In this document: positions 10,300-60,068 of the stretch, in pieces | Layout: every line of letters begins with the position of its first letter | Numbering within the stretch: the stretch's first letter is position 1 | Source: Dethiobacter sp. | GTDB lineage: Bacteria > Bacillota > Dethiobacteria > DTU022 > UBA8154 | Length of the DNA: 64,000 bases | Reading direction: 5' to 3' | Assembly (NCBI GenBank): GCA_003605065.1 | Contig: QZJM01000049.1 | Coordinates: 208-64,207 of the forward strand | The notes under the pieces: model-generated | Told to the model about the DNA's origin: nothing | Databases searched by the model: none | Seen by the model: the letters and a program-made list of their open reading frames with translations, nothing else | Translations under genes and position numbers: made by a program

Positions 10300-10612
10300 A
10301 TAAATTAAAAAAGCCTCTTGCCCAAATAAGGACGAGAGGCTTGCTTTCGCGGTGCCACCTTAATTGCCGGTAAAAATAATTAACCAGCATCTTTCTCAGG
10401 TACGGCCCAAAATTGCGTGGGCGATACCCTGAACTCTGCTAACGGTGCTCACTCCGGCAAAAACTACTAGGTAATAACCGTTCGTCATGCAATTCTTGAG
10501 TCCATTCGCTCTCTGCGCCTGGACCGGGCTCACACCTTTTCCCGGTTCTCTGGGCCTTCGCTCGAGAGTTACTAGTCTCATTCATAATTTTTTACATTAT
10601 GATGTTAGTTCT
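10300..10612 (-). promoter_or_regulatory. T-box riboswitch leader, putative Trp (UGG) specifier, with intrinsic terminator
   Basis: Minus strand reads AATTAAGGTGGCACCGCGAAAGCAAGCCTCTCGTCC...GGCAAGAGGCTTTTTT (T-box 14-mer plus terminator). Stem I carries AGAGAG-CGAA-UGG-A-CUCAAG, matching the GAA-codon-A specifier context. A second GC hairpin plus U-run lies at about 10241-10260. Confidence 0.75.
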
Positions 10613-18969: not shown

Positions 18970-19300
18970 AGATCAAAAAACTTCCATCCCATAGGGACGG
19001 AAGTTTAATCTTCACGCGGTACCACCCTGGTTAGGCACATAGTGCCCCCCTCTTATTAGAGTACGGACCAGAATTTTCCGCCCGATACCCTTAATACATA
19101 GTGCTTTTCAGCAGTGGTGTCAGGTACGGACTGAAAGCATTCCAGTCTTATACCCCCTTCCTTTTAACGGTGGAAGTTTCCGTCAAAGCCTACTAACCGT
19201 TAAGGCGTTATCGGCTTTCGGTTTGCTTCTCAGGAGTGTATTTCAGCAATTTAGGACACCGGGTCGCACCATCCCCCGGCTCTCTGAGATCCGTTTATTA
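18970..19300 (-). promoter_or_regulatory. T-box riboswitch leader (complete), putative Tyr (UAC) specifier, terminator 18974-19006
   Basis: Minus strand reads AACCAGGGTGGTACCGCGTGAAGATTAAACTTCCGTCCCTATGGGATGGAAGTTTTTT. Upstream are an F-box-like CCGTTAAAAGG and a Stem I carrying AGAGAG...GAUGGUG...GAAAUACAC (AA-UAC-A). Confidence 0.7.
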
Positions 19301-19386
19301 CCTACTTCTCTCCGTCATCGCTTTACTTAATTTTCTTGTACCGAACCGATGTTTAACCGGTAATACCAGCTTCTTCTCTACCTTTT

Positions 19387-52295: not shown

Positions 52296-52431
52296 ACTAT
52301 CTCCGAATAAAGAAAGAAGAGAAAGAAATAATAAGGTAAAGGGGTGCCTGGAACAGGTGCCGGGCACTTAACTGTTTACTTATTGTTTCCTTCACTCTGT
52401 ATCGATATGCCAGATAAAAGGAGGTGTTAAA

Positions 52432-52779
52432 ATGACCATAGCACAAACATCTGTAGAAAAATACCAGAGCTGTATTGACGCTTGTAACCGGTGTATGCAG
52501 GTATGTGAAGAGTGCTTGCAGTCATGTTTGAAGGAGGAAGACGCCAAAGCCAGGGCCAGGTGTATTTCAATACTCAGGGACTGTGCCGATATTTGTTCCC
52601 TGGCCTCCCAGTTTATGGCCAGAAACAGCGAATTTTCCAGACAGCTCTGTGATTTATGCGCCACTATTTGTGATTCCTGCGCCGTTGAATGTGACAGATT
52701 CAAAGATCAACACTGCCGGCTGTGTGCCGACGAATGCCGCCGGTGTGCACAGGAATGCCGCCAGATGGCTAAAATATAA
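52432..52779 (+). CDS. cysteine-rich four-helix-bundle copper-binding protein (DUF326 family)
   Basis: 115 aa with 18 Cys arranged as repeated Cx2C/Cx3C (CIDACNRCMQVCEECLQSC ... CADECRRCAQEC). RBS AAAAGGAGGTG. Confidence 0.7.
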   Translation: MTIAQTSVEKYQSCIDACNRCMQVCEECLQSCLKEEDAKARARCISILRDCADICSLASQFMARNSEFSRQLCDLCATICDSCAVECDRFKDQHCRLCADECRRCAQECRQMAKI

Positions 52780-52791
52780 GCCGCAAGACGC

Positions 52792-52828
52792 AAAGAGAGA
52801 ATCCAACAAAACTATGATTCTCTCTTTC
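52792..52828. terminator. bidirectional terminator AAAGAGAGAATCcaacaaaactatGATTCTCTCTTT
   Basis: 12-bp perfect inverted repeat with T-rich flanks, between the convergent cysteine-rich gene and the Mrr-like gene. Confidence 0.55.
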
Positions 52829-52938
52829 TATTTAACTTGCTTACCCAATCCATGTCCGCTCTCTGTATACCTCTTTCTGCTCACCGAAAACCAGATACCG
52901 CACATATTCAGCATTCTGCTGCCGGCATGCTGGCGTAC

Positions 52939-53595
52939 TTAAATTCTTAAAAACCAATCATTATCAATTGTGACAGACTCTACTTTTATAATCTCAGTCT
53001 TTACCCCTAGTTTAATTCTGTAAATACCTTTTCCGTCAATTCCACCGTCACCGCTTCTGCCAGTTACTTCTACCTGTATAAAACCGGATTCCCTCAGAAG
53101 CCTTTGGACCAGTCTTTCAAAAGCATCTGGTTTCATATTGACTAATATGTTTTGAAGTTTAATTCTCCAATCCTCAATGTCTTCAGTTTCATCTACTGAA
53201 TCATCCTCTGAGACAATTTCTTTTTTTCCTCCACCTTTTGTTATTTTTTCTTTTGCAATTAACTCTCTTACCTTCTTAACAACATCACTGGGGTCTACCT
53301 CTCTAACATCTTGCCCGGTTGGAGTAAATGCCCATATACCCCTAGCTGAATTCTCAAGAATTCCATACTTTCTCAGATAAGTGCGGGTCCAGGCAAGACG
53401 ATACGCTACCTCACTCATACTTCCTTCTTTATTTTCGTGTGGTATTTCAAGTATTTCGTCCGGTAAATCAAGTATTTTGATTGTCTCTTCATATATTTCA
53501 GAAACTGAACCGGAACCACCCAGCTCTCTTAAGGCCTGAATTAAAGGATTCATCATTTGATCATAAGTCGGGATTTTCATAGTGCTTCTTGTCAT
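52939..53595 (-). pseudogene. Mrr-like type IV restriction endonuclease, C-terminally disrupted
   Basis: 218 aa with an Mrr_N winged helix and the start of the Mrr catalytic domain (FERLVQRLLRESGFIQVEVTGRSGDGGIDGKG), then a premature end. An out-of-frame remnant (SRKRY..., resembling the QCKRY motif) follows downstream. Confidence 0.5.
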
Positions 53596-53885
53596 ATGAA
53601 CCTCCTCAGCATATCAAAGTTTACCCGTACGTTTTTTTCCAAAGAATAGGAAATACGCCCTTCCCATTTGTTATTTGACTAAATAGATTGCTTACTCCAC
53701 TTTTCCATTTCATATCTACAATACGGAAGCCTATATTTTTGCATATCGCCAATTATAATGAACGGATGTTGAAACCATTTTAACCAACGATTTGTTGCTC
53801 AATTTCCGAATGATAAATCACCTATGTATATATAGTTATATAACTTCAAGATGAGTTTGGTTCAGCAAAAGTTAATTATTATAAT

Positions 53886-54347
53886 TTGGTAAAATGGATG
53901 AGTAACGACATTCAAATTTTAAGAGCTTATTATTACCACTGCCTTCCATATCAAAGCGATCCCCCCAGTGATGAAGAAAAAAAGAGATTTTCCAAGGCAC
54001 AGAAGTTTTTCAATAACCTGTCAAAATTGCCTCGATTCGAGGTAAGGTTAGGTGAATTAGCCTTTAGGGGTTATAAAAATACCGGTTCTCCAATTTTTGT
54101 TCAAAAAATGGTTGATATTTTGCTTGGAGTTGATTTAGTACTATTGGCAGCTAAACAAAGAATTTCCCATGCTGCTATATTTGCAGGAGACAGTGACTTT
54201 CTACCTGCAATAAAAGTAGCGAAAAACGAAGGTGTTATTATTACTCTTTTTCATGGGACAACCCATCCACCACACGATAACTTATGGGAAATTGCTGATG
54301 AAAGAGTTCCCCTTAATCAAGAAATTATTAATAAAATATTACGATAA
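53886..54347 (+). CDS. NYN-domain (LabA-like) protein, probably N-terminally truncated
   Basis: 153 aa with the GDSDFLPAI motif of the NYN/LabA fold. The usual N-terminal Asp motif is absent. AT-rich degraded DNA lies upstream. Confidence 0.5.
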   Translation: MVKWMSNDIQILRAYYYHCLPYQSDPPSDEEKKRFSKAQKFFNNLSKLPRFEVRLGELAFRGYKNTGSPIFVQKMVDILLGVDLVLLAAKQRISHAAIFAGDSDFLPAIKVAKNEGVIITLFHGTTHPPHDNLWEIADERVPLNQEIINKILR

Positions 54348-54352
54348 ATGTA

Positions 54353-54470
54353 TTGACACAATATAAACCGGATATTATAATAAATGCAGAATAGCTACTG
54401 GCGTTCGCGAGGATGTCAGTCAAGAATCTGTGTAACCCCACTTTTTATGAGTGGGGTTACTTTTTATAAA
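54353..54470 (+). ncRNA. candidate small RNA: consensus sigma-A promoter (TTGACA-17-TATAAT) followed about 50 nt later by a strong intrinsic terminator
   Basis: TTGACAcaatataaaccggatatTATAAT at 54353-54381. GTAACCCCACTttttatgAGTGGGGTTACTTTTTAT at 54432-54466. No convincing ORF or RBS between them. Confidence 0.45.
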
Positions 54471-54484
54471 ACATGAGGGGAATG

Positions 54485-56598: not shown

Positions 56599-58923
56599 CT
56601 AATGGAACTGTATATAGTTAACCTTTCCTGCGGCAATATCTTCGTGTAAAACCTGCCCGACCTCTTCCTTCGCCGTAAAATACAGAACCTGCCAGCCCTT
56701 GGCACAGATTTTTTGGAGCACTTCCAGCTGCCTGCGCAATCTGGGCAGATCTGCTTTAACAAAGGGATCATCGAGAATAAAAAATCCCTTCTGCCCTTTT
56801 AAGAGCTTCTCTCCGAGCGCCAGCCTCACAGAAAGATAGAGCTGGTCAAAAGCGCCGCCGGACAGCTTCACTGCAGACAGGATATGCCCATCTTTATTTT
56901 TAACCTCCACTGTTTTTACCCCGGGATTAAAATTAACTTCTTCATATAAATTACCCGTTATCTCCGCAAAGTACGCGGAGATGAGGCTGTCCCGGCCAAA
57001 CAATTCCAGAACTTTCTCTTCTTCTTCCCTCTCAATTTCTTCAAAAATGCTTATGGCCTTTAGTACATAGTCTGTACTGGTTTCAACTTCATTAATAAAT
57101 TGTTTCAGCCTGTTTTGAATAGCCTGCAAATCAACCAGGGTATTACAGTGAAAATGTTCACCTTCCAGGCTGAAAACCCCGTTTGCTTTTTGCTCAATTT
57201 CCCTCAGCTTTTGCGTAAAAGCAGCCATTTTCGCCGTTATACTATTTTTCTCCTCTTCCAGTTCCTTTTTCCTGTTTTTTAAGAATGTGCTCCGTTCTTC
57301 GTCATAATCCAGGCCTCTGCCGGCGTGTTCATAAACCTTTAGCTTTTCCAGTTCTCCACGCCAGTAAAACATGTCTTCCTCTATTTTCCCCTGACCGGCA
57401 CCAAACAAATTTTTTAAGACGGCCGCCTGTTTCTCTTTAATCCTTTCCTGCTCCTGCTTTTCCCGGAGTTTCTGGCTATATTCATCCAGGGTCAATAACC
57501 CGCTTTTAATTTTAATCTTTTCGATGATATCCTCTGATTTAGCGGCACTTTGCCCACATTTTTCCTTTTCACTTTCCCTGTTTTGTATTTCTGCCTGCAG
57601 GAAAGAAAGGCGGCTGTCCGCTTTTTTTAATTCTTCTTCTTTTCTGTAGAGATTATCTTCAAAAGCGGCCATATTTTCCAGGACTTCCCCCAGGCTGGCA
57701 CCGCCCAACTGGTACCGGGCAGAGCTAAATTTAATTTTTTCCAGTAAACCCTTAAGGCGGGCCTTTCCCCTGACATAAGAAAAATACATTAAGGCAAAGA
57801 CTGCTGCTGAAGTGAGAAAAAGCATGGACAAAACATAAAAAGCAAAAGCAGGTCTGGCGATAATTCCGGCTATGGTCACCAGCAGCAGGACTGCCGAAAT
57901 TATGCCGGCAGCAGCAAAGAACCTGCTCTTTTCCCCTTCAGCCCCCAGTTTTTCATTTGTCAGGTCATAATCCCGGAGAAGTGGTTTAATATCGTTGTCA
58001 ACTTTTTCCTTCCTGCGGCGGAGAAGATGCAGATCCCTTTCTTTTTCTTCCATGAATAGGCGGGCCTTTTTGAGCTCCTCTTTTTTACTGTTTATATTCT
58101 CTTCCATTTCCCGGCAGCGCCTTATCTCCCTGTCCCGGTCACGCAGGTTATCCCGCCATAGTTCCTCATCTGCGCTGTTAAAAATGGACAGCGTATTAAC
58201 TGTTTCCCCGGCCTCCTCCAGGTTTTCCAGGGCAGTCCGGGCTCCTTCATAGATCTTCCTCTTCCTGGCCATTTCCAGGTTTTCCAGTTCCAGCCCAATA
58301 CCTTCCAGCTCTTCGGCAATTTTTATAACGGCATCTTCCAAAAGGTCTAACTTCGCCCCGGTGCTTTCCTCCATTAAAATCTCCGTTTTTTTAACGAGAT
58401 CAGCTGCCTCCAGAAATCTTGATTTGATCTTGCCGTAACGGGCGTCATCAGACAGCAGACCCTCGCTGGAGGCCCTGGTTAATTTACCTAGTTCCATGAG
58501 CTTTTTTTTCAGAGAAGAGATTTCCTCTATCCTCAACCCTGTAAGACGATCTGTTAAGCCGGCATAAAAATCGCTCTCCCTGTCGATAGCGAGGTCGCTA
58601 TTTCTGATAATAAAAATATTGCGGTATTCCGATGGGTTTATATCCGCCATTTGGCCCGGATCTCCCTTCCCGGGCAGCTTCATTTCTTTCCCGTCTTCCC
58701 CCTGGAGCACGACATAACCTTCGGGGTTTTCCTCCACCCGGTCCAGTCCTGCAAATATTTTTGGTGTGGCACTGCGGCCCAGCAGCATTTTCAACAGCGC
58801 ATCTATGGAAAGCGACTTTCCATCCTCGTTGTGTCCGAAAAAAAGGTTAAATTCCTTAAGAACAAACCTTTCGTCCCGGGCTACGGGACCATATCGCTTC
58901 AGGCAAAATTCCTTCAGGATCAT
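56599..58923 (-). CDS. yhaN: SbcC/Rad50-like AAA ATPase with central transmembrane hairpin (YhaN-like)
   Basis: 774 aa with Walker A GHNEDGKS at the N-terminus, long coiled-coil regions, an internal hydrophobic segment (AAAGIISAVLLLVTIAGII...FLTSAAVFALMYF), and C-terminal signature/Walker B (LSGGAFDQLYLSVRLAL, FFILDDPF). Confidence 0.75.
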   Translation of the reverse strand: MILKEFCLKRYGPVARDERFVLKEFNLFFGHNEDGKSLSIDALLKMLLGRSATPKIFAGLDRVEENPEGYVVLQGEDGKEMKLPGKGDPGQMADINPSEYRNIFIIRNSDLAIDRESDFYAGLTDRLTGLRIEEISSLKKKLMELGKLTRASSEGLLSDDARYGKIKSRFLEAADLVKKTEILMEESTGAKLDLLEDAVIKIAEELEGIGLELENLEMARKRKIYEGARTALENLEEAGETVNTLSIFNSADEELWRDNLRDRDREIRRCREMEENINSKKEELKKARLFMEEKERDLHLLRRRKEKVDNDIKPLLRDYDLTNEKLGAEGEKSRFFAAAGIISAVLLLVTIAGIIARPAFAFYVLSMLFLTSAAVFALMYFSYVRGKARLKGLLEKIKFSSARYQLGGASLGEVLENMAAFEDNLYRKEEELKKADSRLSFLQAEIQNRESEKEKCGQSAAKSEDIIEKIKIKSGLLTLDEYSQKLREKQEQERIKEKQAAVLKNLFGAGQGKIEEDMFYWRGELEKLKVYEHAGRGLDYDEERSTFLKNRKKELEEEKNSITAKMAAFTQKLREIEQKANGVFSLEGEHFHCNTLVDLQAIQNRLKQFINEVETSTDYVLKAISIFEEIEREEEEKVLELFGRDSLISAYFAEITGNLYEEVNFNPGVKTVEVKNKDGHILSAVKLSGGAFDQLYLSVRLALGEKLLKGQKGFFILDDPFVKADLPRLRRQLEVLQKICAKGWQVLYFTAKEEVGQVLHEDIAAGKVNYIQFH

Positions 58924-59984
58924 TTCCTTACCCCCATCATGGCCTGAATAGCCAGAGCAAGTATCTGTCTTTTTGTTACCTCAGGATGATCAGCCTGTCC
59001 CAGAACAGAGGAAAATTTTTTAAATAAACTATTTTCCAGGATAATACTGATATCCCTGAACTCGTAATTTTCTTCCACGCAATTTATTCCGCCAATTTTT
59101 TTCTTTATACCGGCCACAAGTTCCGTTTCACTTACCCCAAGCTCGGCACTGTTTATATAACCTTTCACTGTAAGAACAACTCTGGCCTGGGAATGGAGGG
59201 ACATTAAATGCTTTTCAATTATTTCCAGGGGGTTTTGATGCTTAAAAGGTTCCAGTTCGATTACCACTTCCGCAAAATGAGAGGTATTTAGAGTACGCTC
59301 TTCCGGCGGACTGCCCAGCCGGAAGATATTAACTTTGCGCAGGCCCGTTTCCCTCCTGGTTACAGAAACGGGAGAACCGGGATAAATAAAGTAACCGCCG
59401 TTATCCAGCAACCGCACGTCAAAATTGCGGTGAAAATGCCCCGCCAGGATATAATGAAAAGGCAGGTCTTTAAAATAGGAGAGTTTAAAAGGCATGTACC
59501 TCCCTGTGCCCTCATCACCCAGCTCACCCCTGAAATAGAAGGCGTCCAGCAGTTCGCCATGATATACCAAAATATTGCTTTTATCAGGAGAGAGCCTGTC
59601 TTTCAACATCCTGAGCCTGGCCTGGATTTCTGCCTCCCCGGCGTGCTCAAAAGACATCCCCCAGATTCTTACTTTTTCGTTTTCAAAAGGAGTATGCAGG
59701 TTATTTAAAATAACGGTATCATCCCCGAAATACATTCCGCCGCCAAATGAATCTTTATCGTGGTTCCCGGGAAGAATGATAATTTTAAAACTGTTACCGG
59801 AAAATATTTTTCGCAGGTACGGCCTTAAATTTTCCGCATTAATCCCCTCATCAAAGAGATCGCCGCTGATCACAAAAATGTCTATGCCCTCTTTACCGGC
59901 CAGATCTACAAGCTCCTGCAGCGCCATCCATCTTTCATCAGCATATTCCCTCAGATGAATATCAGCCGTGTGCAGTATTTTCAT
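58920..59984 (-). CDS. yhaO: SbcD/Mre11-like metallophosphoesterase (YhaO-like)
   Basis: The track ORF runs to 60041. The probable start is the ATG at 59984 (MKILHTADIHL) with RBS GGGAGCGGG. Calcineurin-like motifs DIHL, GDLFD, GNHD, GHFH. Confidence 0.75.
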   Translation of the reverse strand: MKILHTADIHLREYADERWMALQELVDLAGKEGIDIFVISGDLFDEGINAENLRPYLRKIFSGNSFKIIILPGNHDKDSFGGGMYFGDDTVILNNLHTPFENEKVRIWGMSFEHAGEAEIQARLRMLKDRLSPDKSNILVYHGELLDAFYFRGELGDEGTGRYMPFKLSYFKDLPFHYILAGHFHRNFDVRLLDNGGYFIYPGSPVSVTRRETGLRKVNIFRLGSPPEERTLNTSHFAEVVIELEPFKHQNPLEIIEKHLMSLHSQARVVLTVKGYINSAELGVSETELVAGIKKKIGGINCVEENYEFRDISIILENSLFKKFSSVLGQADHPEVTKRQILALAIQAMMGVRK

Positions 59985-60068
59985 TTTCGCCCGCTCCCGA
60001 TTTTTAAAGGTGAGTTTGTACTTATATGCTAATTTTAGCAAAATAAACCAGGAAAAACAAGTGCCATA

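What the first reader, a model, noticed from the sequence alone, without database searches (positions are those of the whole stretch)
54353..54470. Perfect-consensus promoter to terminator unit with no ORF: candidate sRNA at the 3' end of the GH57-like gene
TTGACA-17-TATAAT begins 6 nt after the NYN stop. The predicted transcript of about 78 nt, cagaauagcuacuggcguucgcgaggaugucagucaagaaucuguguaACCCCACUuuuuaugAGUGGGGUUACUUUUU, ends in an 11-bp GC-rich terminator 20 nt from the stop codon of the convergent GH57-like gene. Such a strong promoter driving only a short structured RNA is typical of trans-acting sRNAs or of type I antitoxins. A 17-codon ORF, MQNSYWRSRGCQSRICV, exists but has no RBS.
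Basis: seen in the sequence. Interest (0 to 1): 0.55.

Follow-up and report, generated by a model that had tools for sequence, protein, structure and literature searches.

The report
Small RNA gene partnered with NYN nuclease
The promoter-to-terminator unit is real. It is one copy of a widespread small RNA, apparently undescribed, that always sits beside one clade of NYN ribonuclease genes, here beside a broken copy, and it is most likely that nuclease's dedicated RNA partner.

Summary
A perfect TTGACA-17-TATAAT promoter (54353-54381) is the only one in the window (0.01 expected). It lies about 78 nt upstream of an 11-12 bp terminator (54432-54465) and encloses a stable hairpin (54397-54420).

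The unit belongs to the NYN gene on its own strand, not to the GH57-like gene. In loci found through NYN homologues, the same element lies beside about 65-70 standalone 184-aa NYN (LabA-like, PF01936) genes, always on the NYN strand. It consists of a sigma-70 promoter, a 5' RGWAU box, a hairpin with a nearly invariant CGUU/GAUG core and a covarying outer stem, a second RGWAU box, and usually a terminator. About 0.47 Mb of control loci gave no hit.

Most relatives place it upstream (promoter-RNA-terminator-RBS-NYN). The window's clade places it 36-63 nt downstream with its own consensus promoter. Here the NYN gene has lost its first ~31 codons, including the FIDGAY motif. The segment is a decayed insertion between TreZ and the GH57-like gene.

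Neither Rfam 15 nor the searched papers describe this RNA. The best reading is a dedicated, probably inhibitory (type III antitoxin-like) RNA partner of the nuclease. Type I antitoxin, CsrA sponge and chance are rejected. The function is inferred, not shown.

The parts
54353..54358 (+). -35 hexamer TTGACA
   Evidence: The same hexamer, mostly perfect, occupies the equivalent position in most of 60 distinct family loci.
54376..54381 (+). -10 hexamer TATAAT, 17-nt spacer
   Evidence: Across the family the -10 box ends 6-9 nt before the conserved RNA 5' box. Both hexamers are unchanged in L003.
54388..54393 (+). Inferred transcription start (A54388) and the conserved 5' box AGAAUA (family consensus RGWAU)
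   Evidence: Alignments A3 and A4. The distance to the -10 box is fixed. The start site is inferred, not measured.
54397..54420 (+). Conserved hairpin: 10-bp stem ACUGGCGUUC / GGAUGUCAGU with a GCGA loop; the CGUU/GAUG core, which includes G.U and U.G pairs, is nearly invariant
   Evidence: Fold. Covariation (outer 5 pairs: 34 double-change cells, 0/500 shuffles; 97.9% paired, 80 double-change cells, 6 of 10 pairs). The covariance model R1 scores this copy 46.8 bits, E = 2e-11.
54423..54427 (+). Second AGAAU box, a direct repeat of the 5' box, 4 nt before the terminator stem
   Evidence: The two flanks resemble each other within a sequence more than across sequences (5.26 vs 4.91 +/- 0.10; 1 of 1000 permutations reached the observed value).
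54432..54465 (+). Intrinsic terminator: GUAACCCCACU(U) / (G)AGUGGGGUUAC plus UUUUU; the 3' end of the ~78-nt RNA
   Evidence: A hairpin plus U-run follows the motif in about 48 of 60 distinct family loci.
53886..54347 (+). 5'-truncated NYN (LabA-like, PF01936) gene remnant, the genetic partner of the RNA
   Evidence: Pfam NYN at E = 5e-8, matching only profile positions 48-126 of 145. Alignment with 184-aa homologues shows that the first ~31 residues, including the nearly invariant FIDGAY motif with the first catalytic Asp, are missing. The full-length homologue is modelled at pLDDT 95, and its best PDB match is the LabA-like NYN structure 2qip.
52296..54484 (.). Inserted, decayed segment between the convergent TreZ and GH57-like genes; it holds a Csp/DUF326 gene, a C-truncated Mrr gene, the N-truncated NYN gene and the RNA unit
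   Evidence: In L004, L012, L016, L017 and others, TreZ and the GH57-like gene are 0-30 nt apart. Domain truncations are shown.

Best explanation
The unit is a gene for an RNA of about 78 nt. This RNA is the dedicated partner of a standalone NYN (PIN-like) ribonuclease, and the two form a conserved two-part module.

The RNA starts at a conserved AGAAUA box. A hairpin follows, whose CGUU/GAUG core with its wobble pairs is nearly invariant. Then come a second AGAAU box and an intrinsic terminator.

In both gene orders the short RNA should outnumber the nuclease mRNA. In the common upstream order, a strong promoter drives the RNA and only terminator read-through reaches the NYN gene. In the window's order, the RNA has its own perfect-consensus promoter just after the NYN stop codon.

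Most likely (inferred, not shown) the NYN protein recognises the hairpin and its flanking boxes. The RNA then holds the nuclease in check as a decoy or inhibitor, in the way a type III antitoxin or the AbiF-neutralising RNA RCd22 does.

In this window the nuclease gene has lost its 5' end and its first catalytic motif. The RNA gene is therefore an orphan survivor inside a decaying inserted segment.
For: Shown:
- The unit is real and not chance.
- The same promoter-RNA-terminator unit follows 184-aa NYN homologues of 62-78% identity in unrelated neighbourhoods.
- The covariance model R1 finds 69 hits in NYN-ascertained loci, all on the NYN strand and adjacent to the gene. Of these, 58 lie 7-97 nt upstream and 11 lie downstream, mostly 36-63 nt after the stop. 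Four further weak upstream copies appear.
- About 0.47 Mb of control loci gave no hit apart from this locus itself.
- The stem covaries: 97.9% of cells are paired, with 80 double-change cells in 6 of 10 pairs and 0/500 shuffles reaching the observed score.
- Near-consensus promoters sit at a fixed distance from the RNA 5' box, and terminators follow the motif, in most of 60 distinct loci.
- In upstream-type loci only about 15-30 nt separate the terminator from the NYN start (the motif itself ends 7-97 nt before it). That leaves no room for a second promoter, so NYN must be read through the terminator.
- NYN catalytic residues are invariant across the family.
- The RNA body is identical in L003 (0 of 73 positions) against 11 of 148 differences in the flanks, P about 0.004.

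By analogy: RCd22/AbiF has the same architecture of SigA promoter, ~100-nt RNA, terminator and read-through toxin gene. That RNA neutralises the toxin in cis and in trans by direct binding (bioRxiv 10.1101/2025.04.15.648962).
Against: - There is no experimental evidence at all: no transcript, no binding and no toxicity data.
- The RNA lacks the tandem repeats that define classical type III antitoxins.
- No NYN homologue was found in the plasmid or phage collections.
- Several loci have housekeeping neighbours. The module therefore does not look like a typical mobile toxin-antitoxin or defence gene.
- PADLOC gives only weak hits.
- About 10 of roughly 80 NYN loci lack a detectable motif.
- All loci were found through NYN, so it is untested whether the RNA also occurs without NYN elsewhere.
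Confidence: 0.45

Rival explanations
1. Autoregulatory cis-element. The hairpin is the NYN nuclease's own recognition or cleavage site in its mRNA, in the 5' leader in most genomes and the 3' UTR in this clade. It gives negative feedback as in the rne, rnc and pnp leaders. The short RNA would be a by-product rather than a functional inhibitor.
For: 58 of 69 hits lie in the 5' leader of NYN. In the downstream type no terminator separates the NYN stop from the motif, so the NYN mRNA would carry the motif in its 3' UTR. Many neighbourhoods are chromosomal and housekeeping. Feedback through leader hairpins is established for RNase E, RNase III and PNPase (general knowledge).
Against: All 13 downstream-type loci keep a near-consensus promoter dedicated to the RNA, at the same distance from its 5' box as in the leader type. 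Pure cis feedback has no need for that promoter. Upstream-type loci keep a strong terminator right after the motif. The RNA body stays unchanged here although the NYN gene is truncated.
Confidence: 0.27
2. RNP cofactor or adaptor. The RNA is a stable subunit that targets or gates the nuclease, as Y RNA does for Rsr/Ro. Alternatively, NYN matures the RNA for a function elsewhere.
For: The two genes are strictly adjacent in either order, as with bacterial rsr and Y-RNA genes (general knowledge). The sequence core is nearly invariant and the flanking boxes are conserved.
Against: A hairpin of about 35 nt is small for an adaptor. No additional conserved single-stranded 'guide' region was seen. The RNA persists here without an intact nuclease gene.
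Confidence: 0.12
3. Riboswitch-like or attenuator leader that senses a ligand and controls NYN transcription through the downstream terminator.
For: The majority architecture is promoter-motif-terminator-RBS-gene.
Against: The motif is a simple hairpin with a variable apical part. Terminator sequences vary freely while the motif core hardly varies. Predicted minimum-energy folds generally keep both the motif hairpin and the terminator hairpin, with no sign of an alternative antiterminator. Pairing between the 5' flank and the Shine-Dalgarno sequence is no better in true pairs than in permuted pairs. In the window's clade the unit precedes no gene and is followed by convergent genes.
Confidence: 0.06
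4. One reading: a trans-acting base-pairing sRNA with unlinked mRNA targets, or a type I antitoxin.
For: It is an independent unit with a strong promoter and a terminator.
Against: Complementarity to the NYN mRNA shows no consistent excess over shuffled controls (z between -2.0 and +1.4 across nine loci, averaging near zero). No small ORF is conserved on either strand. The conserved nucleotides are mostly paired. The RNA is strictly linked to NYN across phyla, which is not expected of a regulator of unlinked targets.
Confidence: 0.05
5. Chance promoter-like sequence next to a bidirectional terminator that serves the two convergent genes.
For: The hairpin lies between convergent genes, and the region is AT-rich.
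Against: Only 0.01 perfect promoters are expected per window. The whole unit is conserved with covariation in dozens of genomes. On the minus strand the hairpin has no clean U-run.
Confidence: 0.01

Closest known systems
abiF motif RNA / RCd22-AbiF system of Clostridioides difficile (Rfam RF03085; bioRxiv 10.1101/2025.04.15.648962)
   Same: A short structured RNA first recognised as a gene-linked motif. It is laid out as housekeeping-sigma promoter, ~100-nt RNA, Rho-independent terminator, then RBS and nuclease-like toxin gene with no promoter of its own. The short RNA predominates over the read-through transcript. The RNA holds two copies of a small element and acts in cis and in trans by binding the protein. 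This matches the family's majority (upstream) architecture.
   Different: The protein is a NYN/PIN-like nuclease, not Abi_2/AbiF. The RNA has no similarity to RF03085 or to any other Rfam 15 model. In the window's clade the RNA lies downstream of the gene with its own promoter. Nothing has been tested experimentally.
Classical type III toxin-antitoxin systems (ToxIN, CptIN, TenpIN)
   Same: An endoribonuclease gene lies next to a non-coding RNA gene on the same strand. In most family members a terminator sits between them, which makes the RNA more abundant than the nuclease mRNA. The span from one flanking box to the next (34-38 nt) is close to the ToxI and TenpI repeat length of about 36-37 nt (repeat lengths from my own knowledge).
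   Different: There is no tandem repeat array, only one hairpin flanked by 5-8-nt direct repeats. The protein family is unrelated to ToxN, CptN or TenpN. No plasmid or phage copies were found. Toxicity and RNA processing are untested.
AvcID (AvcI sRNA / AvcD deaminase), a type III system with a non-repetitive RNA
   Same: A non-repetitive sRNA, far more abundant than the protein's mRNA, that binds and inhibits the adjacent enzyme (PMC10511110).
   Different: AvcD is a deaminase and AvcI is much longer (minimum functional length ~171 nt, full transcript just under 300 nt). No terminator is predicted between avcI and avcD. Here the terminator is a conserved feature.
Rsr (Ro) with its adjacent Y RNA genes in bacteria
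   Same: A protein gene with a dedicated small RNA gene next to it. The RNA gates or adapts an RNA-degrading machine (general knowledge).
   Different: Y RNAs are larger and have a tRNA-like domain. Ro is not a nuclease. There is no sequence or structure similarity here.
RsmY/RsmZ CsrA-sponge sRNAs (the best Rfam sub-threshold hit)
   Same: A short RNA with an AGGAUG element and a terminator.
   Different: The score is 23.5 bits against a gathering score of 57. There is a single GGA and it sits in a stem, not a loop. GGA is not conserved across the family. Other family members give no RsmY hit.

Membership tests
Independent sigma-70 transcription unit ending in an intrinsic terminator | -35 and -10 hexamers with 16-18 nt spacing, followed downstream by a GC-rich hairpin and a U-run | tested here: met
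   12 of 12 consensus positions with a 17-nt spacer, against 0.01 expected. The terminator has an 11-12 bp stem plus UUUUU. Transcription itself was not measured.
Conserved structured RNA family (new NYN-linked motif) | Homologous sequences in other genomes, with base pairs maintained by compensatory changes | tested here: met
   69 covariance-model hits. 97.9% of cells are paired, with 80 double-change cells in 6 of 10 pairs, 0/500 shuffles reaching the observed score, and slid controls at 29-49% paired. The inner 5 pairs of the seed alignment A3 were fixed by my search pattern, but the covarying outer pairs were not.
Any Rfam 15 family | Score at or above the family's gathering threshold | tested here: not met
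   There is no gathering-level hit at the locus or at the motif in 14 other members. The sub-threshold hits are inconsistent between members.
Type III toxin-antitoxin system | Non-coding RNA gene adjacent to a ribonuclease gene on the same strand | tested here: met
   All 69 hits are adjacent to NYN and on its strand. NYN catalytic residues are invariant in the family.
Type III toxin-antitoxin system | Gene order promoter - antitoxin RNA - terminator - toxin gene | tested here: inconclusive
   This order is met in 58 upstream-type loci. It is not met in the window and its clade, where the RNA follows the gene and has its own promoter.
Type III toxin-antitoxin system | Antitoxin made of tandem direct repeats that the toxin processes | tested here: not met
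   No tandem repeat was found. There is only a single hairpin flanked by short RGWAU direct repeats. Processing could not be tested.
Type III toxin-antitoxin system | The protein is toxic and is neutralised by direct RNA binding | not testable with these tools
   This needs expression and rescue assays plus EMSA or co-purification.
Type III toxin-antitoxin system | Toxin belongs to the ToxN, CptN or TenpN families | tested here: not met
   The protein is a NYN domain, PF01936. Its fold matches the LabA-like structure 2qip.
Type I toxin-antitoxin (antisense RNA antitoxin) | Small, usually hydrophobic toxin ORF, with the RNA complementary to its mRNA | tested here: not met
   No ORF is conserved on either strand in 12 downstream-type loci. 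RNA-mRNA duplex energies are no better than shuffled controls.
RsmY/RsmZ-type CsrA sponge | Several GGA motifs in loops or single-stranded regions, and a score above the Rfam threshold | tested here: not met
   The score is 23.5 bits against 57. The single GGA lies inside the stem and is not conserved across the family.
Riboswitch / transcription attenuator | Located in the 5' UTR of the regulated gene, with a mutually exclusive terminator and antiterminator | tested here: not met
   The window copy precedes no gene; a convergent gene follows it. In upstream-type leaders the motif hairpin and the terminator generally coexist in the minimum-energy fold. No conserved alternative pairing was found.
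NYN / LabA-like nuclease (PF01936), for the partner gene | Pfam NYN match above threshold, PIN-like fold, and the conserved acidic catalytic residues | tested here: inconclusive
   The domain match is met (34 bits against a cut-off of 24.2). The full-length homologue is modelled at pLDDT 95 and matches 2qip with a TM-score of 0.67-0.75. The window copy, however, lacks the N-terminal ~31 residues with the first conserved Asp. It is a member by descent but probably inactive.

The most novel reading that the evidence does not exclude
The NYN-linked RNA and its 184-aa NYN nuclease form a new family of RNA-antitoxin (type III-like) or abortive-infection modules. It is widespread in Bacillota and Planctomycetota and present in many metagenomes. 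A single hairpin flanked by two RGWAU boxes (possibly NYN cleavage sites) neutralises a PIN-like toxin. The orphan RNA in this window would then be a retained 'anti-addiction' remnant.
Probability: 0.3. Interest if true: 0.8.

Novelty: new variant of a known kind. Interest (0 to 1): 0.68.

Why it matters
LabA-like NYN proteins (the COG1432 group of PF01936) form a very large family of predicted nucleases. The PIN-superfamily survey PMC5499597 still lists their function as unknown.

A dedicated, strongly expressed RNA that travels with one clade of these proteins across phyla gives the first concrete handle on their function. It points to a probable natural ligand, or to an inhibitor, a substrate mimic or a cofactor.

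If the RNA is inhibitory, RNA-antitoxin (type III-like) systems would extend to the PIN/NYN fold and to a minimal, non-repetitive RNA. This would parallel the recent reassignment of the abiF motif from a 'leader' to an antitoxin.

The module also occurs in a cultured organism, Heliomicrobium modesticaldum Ice1, so the idea can be tested directly.

For this window specifically, the result is more modest. The copy here is a well-preserved orphan next to a broken nuclease gene in a decaying insertion.

Tried and rejected
- **Rfam.** Gathering and permissive scans of the window and of 16 other members found no family. The RsmY hit (23.5 bits against a gathering score of 57) rests on the terminator plus AGGAUGUCAG and is not shared by other members.
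- **tRNA/tmRNA.** None was found in the window or in the related loci. The tRNA-like look of L003's extra 102 nt was not confirmed.
- **Other copies.** There are no further copies of the hairpins in the window. BLASTN against the plasmid and phage collections gave nothing meaningful.
- **Link to the GH57-like gene.** Of 43 orthologous loci, only the near-identical L003 carries the unit.
- **Exact-core DNA search in viral contigs.** This returned only spurious coding matches in high-GC DNA.
- **Antisense or type I model.** Duplex energies are no better than shuffled controls, and no ORF is conserved.
- **Anti-Shine-Dalgarno pairing.** Pairing of the 5' flank with the NYN RBS in leader-type loci appears in some minimum-energy folds. 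It is no better in true pairs than in permuted pairs.
- **Sarcin-ricin-loop mimicry.** The GUUC-GCGA-GGAU apex prompted this idea, which I dropped because the loop and apical part vary freely in the family.
- **Defence-system libraries.** PADLOC gave only weak hits, HEC-09 at 7e-6 and NYN at 2e-4. NCBIfam gave nothing above its cut-offs.
- **Sequence search of the PDB.** It found no homologue.
- **Literature.** No paper in the searched library combines NYN with type III toxin-antitoxin systems, or with phage defence and non-coding RNA. None of the gene-family terms searched (LabA, DUF88, COG1432, PIN domain, nuclease/ribonuclease) appears in the main texts of three large motif-discovery papers, and the full-text search found no use of 'NYN' in them.

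Full report
**1.
The + strand carries TTGACA (54353-54358), a 17-nt spacer and TATAAT (54376-54381). This is the only perfect match to that pattern in the 64-kb window, against 0.01 expected from dinucleotide-preserving shuffles. It begins 6 nt after the stop codon of the upstream ORF.

A perfect 11-nt inverted repeat (54432-54442 / 54450-54460) lies downstream. It forms 12 pairs if a terminal G.U is counted, and UUUUU follows it. The run of U ends about 20 nt before the stop codon of the convergent 645-aa gene.

Transcription from A54388 would give an RNA of about 78 nt. It folds into two hairpins at -33.9 kcal/mol, z = -5.4. The 5' hairpin (54397-54420) has ten pairs closed by a GCGA loop.

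The ORF from ATG 54384 has no stop after 17 codons and runs for 30 codons through the terminator. Its ATG lies 3 nt after the -10 box, so it is probably not even transcribed.

**2. Genomic setting.**
T-box leaders, spore-germination genes and the closest relatives place the window in a Dethiobacteria-like member of the Bacillota, known only from metagenomes.

I fetched 43 loci encoding relatives of the 645-aa 'GH57-like' protein. In most of them that gene converges on the trehalose gene TreZ, often with 0-30 nt between the two stop codons (L004, L012, L016, L017, L022, L039). In the window, 2.2 kb (52296-54484) sits between them. This segment holds four things:
- a Csp/DUF326 gene;
- an Mrr restriction-enzyme gene cut off inside its catalytic domain;
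- a NYN-domain gene that matches only positions 48-126 of the 145-position Pfam profile;
- the promoter-terminator unit.

Only L003 shares the unit. It has 93% protein identity in the GH57-like gene and comes from a deep-mine MAG. The unit is therefore not a feature of the GH57-like gene. It came in with the inserted segment.

**3. The unit travels with the NYN gene.**
Homologues of the NYN fragment are uniformly about 184 aa. The window copy lacks the first ~31 residues, including the nearly invariant FIDGAY motif that carries the first catalytic aspartate. It is a 5'-truncated remnant.

I fetched contigs for full-length homologues of 62-78% identity. The same unit follows the NYN stop codon in wholly different neighbourhoods:
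- among toxin-antitoxin genes (L046);
- in a prophage (L050);
- next to an integrase (L052);
- among housekeeping genes (L150).

Each time the unit has a near-consensus promoter and then, 6-8 nt after the -10 box, AGAAUA. The hairpin CUGGCGUUC-loop-GGAUGUCAG follows, then AGAAU and a terminator of variable sequence.

In more distant homologues (45-61% identity) the same unit lies upstream of NYN. The order there is promoter, RNA, terminator, then about 15-30 nt with the ribosome-binding site, then the start codon.

**4. Family-level statistics.**
I aligned 35 distinct instances (A3) and built a covariance model, R1, from them.

Searching 95 sources ascertained through NYN (the window plus 94 loci) gave 69 hits at E < 0.1. 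Every hit is on the NYN strand and adjacent to the gene. Of these, 58 lie 7-97 nt before the start. The other 11 lie after the stop: ten at 36-63 nt and one at 148 nt. Four more weak upstream copies appear with the speed filters off. About ten NYN loci with adequate flanking sequence show nothing.

The control was about 0.47 Mb of loci not chosen for NYN. The only hits above 17 bits were this locus itself (L001) and its near-identical relative L003.

The stem is supported by covariation:
- In A3 all five outer pairs show compensatory changes (34 double-change cells, 0/500 shuffles). My search pattern left those pairs free.
- In the 64 distinct model-aligned sequences, 97.9% of cells are paired, with 80 double-change cells in 6 of 10 pairs. 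With the 3' partners slid by 1-3 columns, only 29-49% are paired.

The inner CGUU/GAUG segment, with its G.U and U.G pairs, is nearly invariant. The apical part ranges from a tetraloop to an inserted 20-40-nt stem.

The hairpin is flanked by short direct repeats (consensus RGWAU). These resemble each other within a sequence more than between sequences: 5.26 against 4.91 +/- 0.10, with 1 of 1000 permutations reaching the observed value.

Among 60 distinct loci, most have a -35 TTGACA and a -10 TATAAT or TATACT that ends 6-9 nt before the 5' box. About 48 have a hairpin plus U-run after the motif.

A neighbour-joining tree of the NYN proteins puts the downstream arrangement in one region of the tree. 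It is therefore the derived state, and the window belongs to it.

The family includes the following, with G+C of the hits from 0.36 to 0.65:
- Syntrophomonas and other Bacillota;
- Planctomycetota MAGs (L151);
- the cultured Heliomicrobium modesticaldum Ice1, where an IS element has inserted exactly at the NYN stop codon and pushed the RNA unit 1.8 kb away.

**5. What it is not.**
- No Rfam 15 family matches at its gathering score, in the window or in 14 other members. The weak RsmY hit is not shared by other members. Its single GGA lies in a stem and is not conserved.
- There is no tRNA or tmRNA and no tandem repeat.
- No ORF is conserved on either strand.
- Complementarity to the NYN mRNA shows no consistent excess over shuffled controls. 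This argues against a type I antitoxin or cis-target antisense RNA.
- In the leader-type loci the minimum-energy folds generally keep the motif hairpin and the terminator together. Terminator sequences vary freely. The apparent pairing of the 5' flank with the Shine-Dalgarno sequence is no better in true pairs than in permuted pairs. I found no antiterminator logic.

**6. How it most likely works.**
What is shown: a conserved, structured RNA unit of fixed promoter-to-terminator design, strictly coupled to one clade of standalone NYN nucleases in either gene order.

What is inferred:
- The RNA acts in trans. The downstream arrangement keeps a dedicated consensus promoter and precedes no gene.
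- The RNA is made in excess over the NYN mRNA. In one order this follows from a terminator ahead of the gene, in the other from an extra strong promoter.
- The nearly invariant stem core and the flanking boxes are a protein recognition site, and NYN is the only consistent candidate.

This is the design logic of type III toxin-antitoxin loci. It is closest to the C. difficile RCd22/AbiF pair. There a SigA promoter drives a ~100-nt RNA with two small motifs, a terminator follows, and the toxin gene is read through it. That RNA neutralises the toxin in cis and in trans by direct binding (bioRxiv 10.1101/2025.04.15.648962).

I therefore favour an inhibitory RNA partner (confidence 0.45). The rivals are:
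- a purely autoregulatory cleavage or binding site (0.27);
- a cofactor or adaptor RNA in the manner of Y RNA with Rsr (0.12);
- a riboswitch-like attenuator (0.06);
- a base-pairing sRNA or type I antitoxin (0.05);
- chance (0.01).

Several facts weigh against a classical toxin-antitoxin or defence role:
- there is no repeat array;
- no NYN homologue occurs in the plasmid or phage collections;
- many neighbourhoods are housekeeping;
- defence-library hits are only weak.

**7. The copy in this window.**
The NYN partner is truncated and has no obvious ribosome-binding site, so the RNA gene is an orphan. It is nonetheless intact. Between the window and L003 the RNA body shows 0 differences in 73 nt and both promoter hexamers are unchanged. 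The flanks show 11 differences in 148 aligned positions, P about 0.004. This hints at continued selection but rests on a single comparison. The L003 contig ends before the NYN 5' end, so it is unknown whether NYN is intact there.

**8. Novelty.**
- The RNA is absent from Rfam 15.
- The PIN-superfamily survey lists this NYN group as function unknown (PMC5499597).
- No paper in the searched library links NYN to type III toxin-antitoxin systems, or to phage defence together with non-coding RNA.
- None of the gene-family terms I searched (LabA, DUF88, COG1432, PIN domain, nuclease/ribonuclease) appears in the main texts of three large motif-discovery papers, and the full-text search found no use of 'NYN' in them.

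The library is incomplete and I did not search supplements, so prior description cannot be excluded. I rate the finding a new variant of a known kind: a gene-linked partner RNA, type III-like.

**Limits.**
- All related loci were found through the protein, so RNA copies far from NYN would have been missed.
- My search pattern partly fixed the inner stem of the seed alignment.
- E-values from the shortened model calibration are rough.
- There are no expression data.

Noticed in passing
window 52296-54484: A 2.2-kb segment sits between the convergent TreZ and 'GH57-like' genes and is absent from relatives such as L004 and L012. It holds a Csp/DUF326 four-helix-bundle gene (52432-52779), a C-terminally truncated Mrr gene (52939-53595, minus strand) and the N-terminally truncated NYN gene. 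It looks like a decayed island in a variable hotspot.
   Followed up: partly
It is nonetheless conserved next to TreZ and TreT in more than 40 genomes (55-93% identity). It appears to be an unannotated family in a trehalose/glycogen gene cluster.
   Followed up: partly
L003:7950-8052 (between the RNA terminator and the GH57-like stop): The closest relative has an extra ~102 nt here that the window lacks. It includes a T-arm-like stretch, GGTTCGATC. ARAGORN finds no tRNA, and there are no other copies in the window or in any fetched locus. Whether it is an insertion or a deletion is unresolved.
   Followed up: partly
L152:3001-5560 (Heliomicrobium modesticaldum Ice1, CP000930.2): An IS element (DDE_Tnp_1 transposase, L152:3811-5172) has inserted at the stop codon of NYN gene HM1_0800. 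It alters the protein's C-terminus and separates the gene from its RNA unit (L152:5461-5506). The RNA unit keeps its promoter and terminator.
   Followed up: partly
L046:4780-4794 and L049:4682-4696: An identical 15-nt stretch, ATTCCCGGATTTAAA, follows the RNA terminator region in two loci whose NYN proteins are only 70% identical. L070 has the first 8 nt (ATTCCCGG). No matching copy lies upstream of NYN. It could be a module boundary or an att-like site.
   Followed up: partly
L052:4700-5944 and L053: A tyrosine integrase gene on the opposite strand ends within a few nucleotides of the RNA's terminator. The 3' end of the RNA gene may serve as an integration site there, as tRNA and tmRNA genes do.
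   Followed up: no
window 18990-19327 (-) and 10325-10594 (-): Two T-box leaders score above the Rfam gathering threshold (115 and 108 bits). This is consistent with a Bacillota origin.
   Followed up: no
window 56599-60041 (-): An overlapping gene pair encodes a 774-aa coiled-coil protein with a weak AAA_27 N-terminus and a 373-aa calcineurin-like phosphoesterase. It resembles SbcC/SbcD and lies upstream of the GH57-like gene on the same (minus) strand.
   Followed up: no
L125, L082/L083, L054, L107, L079, L140 (upstream-type motif copies): In these members a 20-40-nt extra stem is inserted at the apex of the conserved hairpin, in place of the usual 4-5-nt loop. The CGUU/GAUG base (CAUU in some of them, such as L125, L082 and L054) and the flanking boxes are kept. 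The apex is therefore free to vary and the base is what is conserved.
   Followed up: partly
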